Below, piece by piece: positions 37,839 to 38,648 of a stretch of DNA of 64,000 nucleotides. The position numbers were made by a program, and so were the translations under genes. The stretch's first letter is position 1; each line of letters starts with the position of its first letter. Origin of the DNA: Escherichia coli (GTDB taxonomy: Bacteria > Pseudomonadota > Gammaproteobacteria > Enterobacterales > Enterobacteriaceae); the NCBI RefSeq assembly GCF_003991155.1, contig NZ_CP031293.1. The stretch is one strand, 5' to 3'. The notes under the pieces are model-generated. The model saw nothing but the letters and a program-made list of their open reading frames with translations. It searched no databases and was not told the origin of the DNA.

Positions 37839-38648
37839 ATGACCGAATTTACCACTCTTCTTCAGCAAGGAAATGCCTGGTTCTTCATCCCCAGCGCCAT
37901 CTTACTTGGTGCGCTTCATGGCCTGGAACCAGGGCACTCAAAAACGATGATGGCGGCGTTTATCATCGCCATCAAAGGCACCATTAAACAGGCGGTGATG
38001 CTCGGACTGGCAGCAACCATTTCGCATACCGCGGTGGTCTGGTTGATTGCCTTTGGCGGGATGGTGATCAGCAAACGTTTTACTGCTCAATCTGCAGAAC
38101 CGTGGCTCCAGTTGATTTCCACGGTGATCATTATTGGCACCGCGTTCTGGATGTTCTGGCGTACCTGGCGCGGCGAACGCAACTGGCTGGAGAATATGCA
38201 CGAGCACGAGCACGAGCACGAGCACGAGCATGATCATGAGCATCATCACCATCACGAACATGGCGAGTATCAGGATGCCCATGCACGAGCCCATGCCAAT
38301 GACATTAAAAGACGATTTGATGGTAGAGAGGTCACCAACTGGCAAATTTTGTTATTTGGCTTAACCGGTGGCCTTATCCCCTGCCCGGCAGCAATTACCG
38401 TGCTGTTGATTTGCATTCAGTTGAAAGCCCTGACACTGGGCGCAACACTGGTCGTCAGTTTTAGCATTGGCCTGGCGTTAACGCTTGTCACCGTAGGCGT
38501 TGGCGCAGCAATCAGCGTTCAGCAGGTCGCAAAACGCTGGAGCGGATTTAACACTCTCGCTAAACGCGCTCCCTATTTTTCCAGTCTGTTGATTGGCTTA
38601 GTTGGTGTGTATATGGGCGTACATGGCTTCATGGGCATAATGCGATAA
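37839..38648 (+). CDS. rcnA: Ni/Co efflux protein RcnA with His-rich loop
   Basis: 269-aa membrane ORF containing HEHEHEHEHEHDHEHHHHHEH. Confidence 0.9.
   Translation: MTEFTTLLQQGNAWFFIPSAILLGALHGLEPGHSKTMMAAFIIAIKGTIKQAVMLGLAATISHTAVVWLIAFGGMVISKRFTAQSAEPWLQLISTVIIIGTAFWMFWRTWRGERNWLENMHEHEHEHEHEHDHEHHHHHEHGEYQDAHARAHANDIKRRFDGREVTNWQILLFGLTGGLIPCPAAITVLLICIQLKALTLGATLVVSFSIGLALTLVTVGVGAAISVQQVAKRWSGFNTLAKRAPYFSSLLIGLVGVYMGVHGFMGIMR

What the first reader, a model, noticed from the sequence alone, without database searches (positions are those of the whole stretch)
38199..38255. Hexanucleotide (CACGAG)n repeat encoding the RcnA His-rich loop
Five tandem CACGAG units followed by CATGAT/CATGAG/CATCAT variants encode HEHEHEHEHEHDHEHHHHHEH. 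Such coding repeats are slippage-prone; the loop length appears to differ from the K-12 protein (269 aa here versus 274 aa as I recall), which could tune metal binding.
Basis: partly seen in the sequence, partly recalled or inferred. Interest (0 to 1): 0.25.

Follow-up and report, generated by a model that had tools for sequence, protein, structure and literature searches.

The report
Variable hexamer repeat in rcnA loop
This is a real six-base repeat inside the E. coli nickel/cobalt efflux gene rcnA that gains and loses His-Glu pairs between strains, but this stretch of rcnA is already used as a strain-typing marker, so the finding is correct and ordinary.

Summary
Window 38199-38228 is a perfect (CACGAG)x5 array. 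It is followed by degenerate His/Asp/Glu codons to 38261, which together encode HEHEHEHEHEHDHEHHHHHEH (residues 121-141) of a 269-aa RcnA. The gene lies in a normal rcnR-rcnA-rcnB locus.

Loop length is strongly polymorphic. RcnA ranged from 261 to 285 aa in the 22 alleles I fetched.

In 5,363 complete E. coli genomes the (CACGAG)n array occurs with n=2 (3 genomes), 3 (13), 4 (about 90), 5 (39) and 7 (2). I found no n=6. Copy number varies on three different flanking haplotypes. Two strains with n=3 and n=4 are identical over 6.27 kb of flanks. This fits recurrent replication slippage that is faster than point substitution.

The 269 versus 274 aa difference from K-12 is not a simple copy-number change. 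It fits a 13-codon deletion between two CATCATCAC motifs plus four added HE units.

An AlphaFold model puts the tract in a low-confidence coil between the two membrane halves.

This is not new. The PulseNet O157 typing primers for locus VNTR-19 (TR7, ORF Z3274) flank this loop, Salmonella STTR5 lies in yohM (rcnA), and Klebsiella typing locus 27 lies in rcnA. Whether loop length tunes metal handling has not been tested.

The parts
38199..38228 (+). Perfect (CACGAG)x5 hexanucleotide array encoding (His-Glu)5, RcnA residues 121-130. This is the variable part.
   Evidence: The allelic series n=2, 3, 4, 5, 7 in other E. coli genomes is.
38229..38261 (+). Degenerate His/Asp/Glu codon tract CATGAT CATGAG CATCAT CACCAT CACGAA CAT encoding HDHEHHHHHEH (residues 131-141). 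It is invariant within the (CACGAG)n allele family.
37839..38648 (+). rcnA, nickel/cobalt efflux protein, 269 aa.
   Evidence: ORF. Pfam NicO 227.7 bits and NCBIfam NF007454 546.9 bits. The identical gene is annotated rcnA in NZ_CP029747.1.
37446..37718 (-). rcnR, Ni(II)/Co(II)-responsive repressor, divergently transcribed.
   Evidence: NCBIfam RcnR equivalog 197.3 bits against a cutoff of 138. Annotation.
37767..37801 (+). Two TACT-G6-N-AGTA motifs (37767-37781 and 37787-37801) in the rcnR-rcnA intergenic region. These are the RcnR operator type; the motif definition is from my own knowledge.
   Evidence: 2 matches, 0 expected by chance.
38867..39205 (+). rcnB, periplasmic accessory protein of the efflux system.
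   Evidence: Pfam RcnB 7.3e-19. Annotation.
38359..38387 (-). Site homologous to the reverse primer of the O157 typing locus VNTR-19, with 3 mismatches in this strain. The forward-primer homologue lies at about 38121-38156 with 4 mismatches, counted by eye.
   Evidence: The primers are printed in PMC8461963. They match O157:H7 rcnA at L011 542-577 and 828-856.

Best explanation
The feature is an in-frame hexanucleotide variable-number tandem repeat (VNTR) in the part of rcnA that encodes the central His-rich loop of the Ni/Co efflux protein. Slipped-strand mispairing at the perfect CACGAG array during replication adds or removes whole units. Each unit is one His-Glu dipeptide, so the reading frame and the C-terminal membrane half are preserved. 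The loop tolerates this because it is an unstructured, probably cytoplasmic linker between the two membrane halves. The window carries the n=5 allele of a minor allele family, present in roughly 3% of complete E. coli genomes. That family fits an origin from a 274-aa-type loop by a 39-nt deletion between two CATCATCAC motifs, giving a 261-aa n=1 form, followed by expansion of the first CACGAG unit (261 + 2(n-1) = 269 aa). Shown: the repeat, the gene, the allelic series, and recurrence on near-identical backgrounds. Inferred: slippage as the mechanism, the cytoplasmic location, and the order of events. Unknown: any phenotypic effect.
For: Gene and locus identity. Allelic series with an otherwise identical loop: n=2 (L018, L019), 3 (L020-L022), 4 (L003, L004), 5 (window, L001, L002), 7 (L017). 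Counts in 5,363 genomes: n=2 3, n=3 13, n=4 about 87-90 (by subtraction), n=5 39, n=6 0, n=7 2. Recurrence on three flank haplotypes: group A has n=3, 4, 5 at 0-1 SNP; group B has n=2, 4 at 0 SNP; group C has n=2, 3, 5, 7 at 1-2 SNPs. TCM3e1 (n=4) and 980-2 (n=3) are identical over 6,271 flanking nt. Both differ from the window (n=5) by 3 SNPs, all outside rcnRAB. Alleles without a perfect array are stable in length: 50 of 60 evenly sampled genomes have the K-12-size span of 316 nt. O157:H7 has an independent (GACCAC)6-7 array in the same loop. Structure: the AF2 model has mean pLDDT 81.6, residues 123-146 are coil, and block pLDDT is 54-65 across residues 121-160 against 82-95 in the helices. 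The loop flanks carry 8 Lys/Arg. Literature: VNTR-19/TR7 is a 6-bp repeat in ORF Z3274 with 3-11 repeats (PMC3321953), and its primers flank this loop. STTR5 lies in yohM (PMC5183578; PMC1781188). Klebsiella locus 27 lies in rcnA (PMC3948817).
Against: Slippage was not observed directly; it is inferred from the pattern of alleles. No n=6 or n=1 allele of this exact family was found in complete genomes, so the stepwise series has gaps. n=7 could have arisen by a two-unit step or through unsampled intermediates. The n=4 count is by subtraction from identity bands, not by enumeration. Loop topology rests on the positive-inside rule, an AF2 model and a published DeepTMHMM statement (PMC11247825), not on experiment.
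Confidence: 0.88

Rival explanations
1. Adaptive tuning. Loop length, and so the number of His/Glu ligands, is selected to adjust Ni/Co capture, efflux rate or chelation capacity, making the array a kind of contingency locus for metal stress.
For: Perfect micro-repeats have arisen independently at several positions of the same loop: (CACGAG)n here, (GACCAC)n in O157:H7, CATGAT x2 in E2348/69, and segmental duplications in P0112, P0021 and P0003. All variants keep an almost pure H/D/E composition. Distant NicO homologues have very different loop sizes, for example 62 His in the 481-aa P0144. Cable bacteria have a greatly expanded loop (PMC11247825). The Salmonella STTR5 study argues for stabilising selection on mid-range repeat numbers (PMC5183578).
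Against: No phenotype data exist. 83% of sampled genomes keep one length. The pattern is what neutral microsatellite dynamics predict once a perfect array exists. Hosts and sources of n=5 strains are heterogeneous (human, cattle, chicken, dog, wastewater), with no obvious link to metal exposure. rcnA is disrupted by IS3 in one strain.
Confidence: 0.2
2. The length differences reflect import of whole alleles by homologous recombination, not local slippage.
For: The window allele differs from K-12 at 19 sites in the rest of the gene and by a composite loop rearrangement. The 269 vs 274 aa contrast is therefore between diverged alleles, not a recent slip.
Against: Within the (CACGAG)n family the flanks are identical or nearly so while n changes. 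There are 0 differences in 6,271 nt between an n=3 and an n=4 strain, and the same holds on three haplotypes. Recombination cannot produce that without a donor that has the same flanks.
Confidence: 0.07
3. Sequencing or assembly artefact in a low-complexity region.
For: None specific. Short repeats can be miscalled in some technologies.
Against: There are 35 independent complete genomes with 100% identical sequence, and 910 contigs encode the exact protein. All variants differ by whole hexamers and stay in frame.
Confidence: 0.01

Closest known systems
E. coli O157:H7 typing locus VNTR-19 (also called TR7 or O157-19; ORF Z3274), used in PulseNet MLVA
   Same: It lies in the same gene and the same loop-coding segment. 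The published VNTR-19 primers map to rcnA on either side of the His-loop repeat in O157:H7. The unit is 6 bp, changes are in frame, and 3-11 repeats with 9 alleles are reported (PMC3321953).
   Different: The O157 array is GACCAC (Asp-His, read as His-Asp repeats) in the middle of a longer loop (283-285 aa proteins). The window's array is CACGAG (His-Glu) directly after Met120, in a loop that lacks the O157 array. The two arrays are independent births in one locus. The O157 primers have 3-4 mismatches in this strain.
Salmonella enterica STTR5 VNTR in yohM (= rcnA)
   Same: [quoted passage not shown] It is a core marker of S. Typhimurium MLVA (PMC5183578; PMC1781188).
   Different: The species and the unit differ, and copy numbers are much higher (mid-range 8-14 reported). 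I did not align the Salmonella sequence here.
Klebsiella pneumoniae MLVA locus 27 in rcnA
   Same: It is a 6-bp repeat within the putative Ni/Co efflux gene rcnA, with 0-19 copies and the highest diversity index of that typing scheme (PMC3948817).
   Different: The unit CATGGT encodes His-Gly rather than His-Glu, and the genus differs.
His-rich cytoplasmic loops of other metal transporters (CDF/ZnT/MTP1, ZIP)
   Same: These are also disordered, His-rich loops between transmembrane segments, thought to bind or sense the transported metal (my own knowledge).
   Different: The protein families and folds are unrelated. Foldseek found no significant PDB match for the RcnA model (best E = 1.1). The role of the RcnA loop is unresolved, described as 'exporter or chelator' (PMC11247825).

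Membership tests
RcnA / NicO family Ni-Co efflux protein | Sequence match to the family models above the curated cutoffs | tested here: met
   Pfam PF03824 scored 227.7 bits (cutoff 27.7). NCBIfam NF007454 scored 546.9 bits (cutoff 195) over residues 1-269.
RcnA / NicO family Ni-Co efflux protein | rcnR-rcnA-rcnB gene neighbourhood, with RcnR operator motifs in the divergent promoter region | tested here: met
   rcnR matches its equivalog at 197.3 bits (cutoff 138) and rcnB matches the Pfam RcnB family. There are two TACT-G6-N-AGTA sites at 37767-37801. The motif definition is from my own knowledge.
RcnA / NicO family Ni-Co efflux protein | Central His-rich loop between two membrane halves | tested here: met
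   Residues 121-141 contain 13 His. The AF2 model shows helices up to residue 122 and from 147, with coil between them. Hydropathy analysis agrees.
RcnA / NicO family Ni-Co efflux protein | Confers Ni/Co resistance by efflux | not testable with these tools
   This needs MIC or metal-accumulation assays.
Variable-number tandem repeat (VNTR) locus | Head-to-tail copies of one unit | tested here: met
   There are five perfect CACGAG copies.
Variable-number tandem repeat (VNTR) locus | Copy number differs between strains while the flanks are conserved | tested here: met
   n=2, 3, 4, 5 and 7 occur with 0-2 flank SNPs within each haplotype group.
O157 MLVA locus VNTR-19 / TR7 | Lies between the published VNTR-19 primer sites | tested here: met
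   The primers (PMC8461963) match O157 rcnA at L011 542-577 and 828-856. The homologous window sites, at about 38121-38156 and at 38359-38387, flank the array, with 4 and 3 mismatches.
O157 MLVA locus VNTR-19 / TR7 | Same repeat array as in O157:H7 | tested here: not met
   O157 has (GACCAC)6-7 in mid-loop. The window has (CACGAG)5 after Met120 and lacks the O157 array. The locus is the same but the array is different.
Simple-sequence contingency (phase-variable) locus | Repeat changes switch the gene on or off by frameshift or promoter spacing | tested here: not met
   The unit is 6 nt and lies inside the CDS. All 22 alleles examined stay in frame and full length.

The most novel reading that the evidence does not exclude
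The repeated, independent birth of perfect His-codon hexamer arrays in the same RcnA loop (CACGAG in this lineage, GACCAC in O157:H7, CACGAC in Salmonella, CATGGT in Klebsiella) is not just mutational noise. On this reading it is a selected, heritable 'dial' that lets enterobacterial lineages quickly adjust the Ni/Co buffering or efflux set-point of RcnA.
Probability: 0.15. Interest if true: 0.5.

Novelty: already known. Interest (0 to 1): 0.15.

Why it matters
As it stands, the finding confirms a textbook case of a coding microsatellite, and it explains why rcnA protein lengths differ between E. coli annotations. The practical point is that the O157 typing locus VNTR-19, Salmonella STTR5 and Klebsiella locus 27 all lie in the same metal-binding loop. 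Routine surveillance data therefore already hold thousands of natural loop-length variants. If loop length did alter Ni/Co handling, those data would amount to a ready-made natural experiment on how His-rich loops work in metal transporters, and the role of the RcnA loop (exporter or chelator) is still unresolved. No evidence for such an effect exists yet.

Tried and rejected
1. I searched for a solved structure of RcnA or a relative. The sequence search returned only His-rich or tag-like spurious hits. Foldseek of the AF2 model against the PDB gave nothing significant (best E = 1.1).

2. I searched the literature for an experimental test of RcnA loop length against metal resistance and found none in the held library. 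The original rcnA paper (PMC1070376) is not held. A search for 'Z3274' alone returned only noise.

3. I considered a phase-variation or frameshift switch. It is rejected because the unit is 6 nt and every allele is in frame.

4. I considered an antisense gene across the repeat. The minus-strand ORFs at 37938..38345 and 38131..38286 translate to low-complexity repeats that mirror the His codons. Nothing supports them as genes.

5. I considered an assembly artefact. It is rejected.

6. I searched with synthetic n=6 and n=8 queries for longer alleles. None with n=6 exists, and only two genomes have n=7.

7. The flank-SNP counts for L005 and L012 (about 298) are a register error from an indel near the 3' end. 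I did not use them.

Full report
**Observation**

The window sequence at 38199-38228 is CACGAG repeated five times without a mismatch. It is followed by CATGAT CATGAG CATCAT CACCAT CACGAA CAT up to 38261. In the frame of the ORF 37839..38648 (+ strand, 269 aa) this reads HEHEHEHEHEHDHEHHHHHEH, residues 121-141.

Its end (38255) stops 6 nt before the end of the peptide it quotes.

Tandem Repeats Finder reports 38198-38242 with period 6, 7.5 copies, 92% matches and score 69. In the whole 64-kb window only one other array reaches score 50.

The sequence is not an artefact. Thirty-five complete E. coli genomes carry the surrounding 301 nt at 100% identity. The exact 269-aa protein is on record on 910 contigs.

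**What the gene is**

- The ORF matches Pfam NicO (2.4e-67) and the NCBIfam nickel/cobalt efflux transporter model (546.9 bits, cutoff 195) end to end.
- Upstream on the other strand is rcnR, which matches its equivalog model at 197.3 bits against a cutoff of 138.
- Downstream is rcnB.
- The divergent intergenic region holds two TACT-G6-N-AGTA motifs (37767-37781 and 37787-37801). From my own knowledge this is the RcnR operator type.
- The locus is a normal rcnR-rcnA-rcnB locus followed by the yehABCD fimbrial operon.

**Where the repeat sits in the protein**

I built an AlphaFold2 model on an alignment of 39 diverse NicO homologues. Mean pLDDT is 81.6 and pTM is 0.73.

- The model has confident helices up to residue 122 and again from residue 147.
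- Residues 123-146 are coil. Block pLDDT is 54-65 across residues 121-160, against 82-95 in the membrane helices.
- The segment 107-165 carries 8 Lys/Arg. By the positive-inside rule this places it in the cytoplasm.
- A published DeepTMHMM-based description of the canonical RcnA architecture says the same (PMC11247825).

The repeat therefore encodes part of an unstructured linker between the two membrane halves. That explains why whole-codon insertions and deletions are tolerated.

**Variation between strains**

A 301-nt query around the loop hits 5,363 of 5,426 complete E. coli genomes. Only 37 match at 99% identity or more. In an evenly spaced sample of 60 hits, the corresponding span in the genome was:

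| Span (nt) | Hits | Note |
|---|---|---|
| 316 | 50 | the K-12 size |
| 277, 280, 295, 301, 331, 340, 344, 350 | 9 in total | other lengths |
| partial | 1 | gene cut by an IS3 element |

I fetched 22 alleles. A protein search gave loops from 17 to 54 residues among Escherichia and Shigella cluster representatives.

**The (CACGAG)n series**

Searches with synthetic queries carrying 2, 3, 6 and 8 units, together with the native n=5 query, gave the following counts. In every case the rest of the loop was identical.

| n | Genomes | Protein length |
|---|---|---|
| 2 | 3 | 263 aa |
| 3 | 13 | 265 aa |
| 4 | about 87-90 (by subtraction from identity bands) | 267 aa |
| 5 | 39 | 269 aa |
| 6 | none | - |
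| 7 | 2 | 273 aa |

Sequence outside the array falls into three haplotype groups:

| Group | Differences within group | Repeat numbers present |
|---|---|---|
| A | 0-1 | n=3, 4, 5 (includes the window) |
| B | 0 | n=2, 4 (ST648 type) |
| C | 1-2 | n=2, 3, 5, 7 (IAI39 type) |

Over 6,271 nt of flanks, strain TCM3e1 (n=4) and strain 980-2 (n=3) are identical. Both differ from the window (n=5) at only three positions, all outside rcnRAB. These strains also share the same island next to rcnR.

Copy number therefore changes repeatedly on near-identical backgrounds, faster than point substitution. That is the signature of slipped-strand mispairing. Slippage itself is inferred, not observed.

**Relation to K-12**

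K-12 has no CACGAG array. Its loop begins CACGGG CATGAT TATGAG, and the two genes differ at 19 other sites. The 269 versus 274 aa contrast is therefore composite.

The alignment and the codon strings fit a two-step origin:

1. A 39-nt deletion between two CATCATCAC motifs of a 274-aa-type loop such as that of strain P30_L1. This gives a 261-aa form; the analogous 261-aa allele exists in strain 2015C-3121.
2. Expansion of the first CACGAG unit, so that length = 261 + 2(n-1), which is 269 aa for n=5.

The order of these events is my inference.

Alleles with mixed His/Asp/Glu codons, such as K-12's, are stable in length. Variable-number behaviour appears where a perfect array has arisen:

- CACGAG in this family.
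- GACCAC x6-7 in O157:H7.
- CATGAT x2 in E2348/69.

**Comparison with what is known**

This is an established VNTR.

- The Emerging Infectious Diseases study of German O157 lists VNTR-19 (TR7) as a 6-bp repeat inside ORF Z3274, with 3-11 repeats and 9 alleles (PMC3321953).
- The VNTR-19 primers printed in PMC8461963 match O157:H7 rcnA at L011 542-577 (0 mismatches) and 828-856 (1 mismatch), on either side of the loop repeat.
- The homologous sites in the window flank the CACGAG array, with 4 and 3 mismatches.
- In Salmonella the widely used STTR5 marker lies in yohM (= rcnA), 'between two domains' (PMC5183578). VNTRDB shows it as a genuine CACGAC VNTR (PMC1781188).
- In Klebsiella pneumoniae, typing locus 27 is a CATGGT repeat in rcnA with 0-19 copies (PMC3948817).

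The window's array is a different unit at a different position of the loop than the O157 array. It is an independent array in a known VNTR locus, not the same array.

**Function**

Whether loop length changes metal handling is open. I found no paper in the held library that tests it. One review-type statement notes that it is not even settled whether RcnA acts as an exporter or as a chelator through the loop (PMC11247825).

The data here are what neutral microsatellite dynamics would give:

- One dominant length in 83% of sampled genomes.
- Variation confined to alleles with perfect arrays.
- No obvious ecological pattern among the n=5 strains.

The repeated independent birth of arrays in the same loop, and the very different loop sizes in distant homologues, leave room for selection. 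I give that reading about 0.15-0.2.

**Verdict**

The phenomenon is already known and used in routine typing. Interest is low.

Noticed in passing
window 29544-29625 and 37276-37357; island about 29626-37275; integrase ORF 35885..37222 (-): A perfect 82-nt direct repeat lies inside two TPP riboswitch hits (29526-29622 and 37259-37354, both on the - strand). The repeats bracket a roughly 7.7-kb element with a tyrosine integrase, an HNH endonuclease, a recombinase-family gene and HTH genes, inserted between thiM and rcnR. It looks like an integrative island that targets and duplicates the thiMD TPP riboswitch leader. Strain ST648 has a different integrase at the same spot, so the site may be an integration hot spot.
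   Followed up: partly
L010 and L011 (O157:H7 rcnA), locus 650-700: O157:H7 strains carry an independent (GACCAC)n array in the same loop, with 6 copies in one strain and 7 in the other (283 vs 285 aa). They also have an extra GDNE insertion after the His tract. This array is the one scored as typing locus VNTR-19.
   Followed up: yes
L013 (strain PCP06021), locus 1-1105: In this strain rcnA is truncated at its 5' end by an IS3-family insertion and is annotated as a pseudogene. The gene is therefore dispensable in at least one seawater isolate.
   Followed up: no
proteins P0112, P0021, P0003, P0006 (E. coli RcnA variants): Some alleles have segmental duplications of 9-18 residues within the loop, for example HEHHQDHEHHHDHG duplicated in P0112, giving loops of up to 54 residues. 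The loop therefore also grows by larger-unit duplication, not only by hexamer slippage.
   Followed up: no
proteins P0135, P0138, P0144, P0150 (distant NicO homologues): Representatives at 50% identity include homologues of 370-480 aa in which the two membrane halves are separated by about 100-200 extra residues. P0144 has 62 His arranged in long HxHx runs.
   Followed up: no
window 37771-37776 and 37791-37797: The two RcnR operator motifs contain G6 and G7 mononucleotide runs. In principle these are also slippage-prone, and they sit in the rcnR-rcnA control region. I did not examine their variation between strains.
   Followed up: no
window 32218-32268: This is the only other tandem repeat in the window with a TRF score of 50 or more: a 26-nt AT-rich unit present twice at 80% match. 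It lies inside the island.
   Followed up: no
window 37938..38345 (-) and 38131..38286 (-): Mechanical ORFs run antisense to rcnA across the repeat and translate to LVLVLV or RARARA runs. They are a by-product of the repeated His-Glu codons, and nothing supports them as genes.
   Followed up: no
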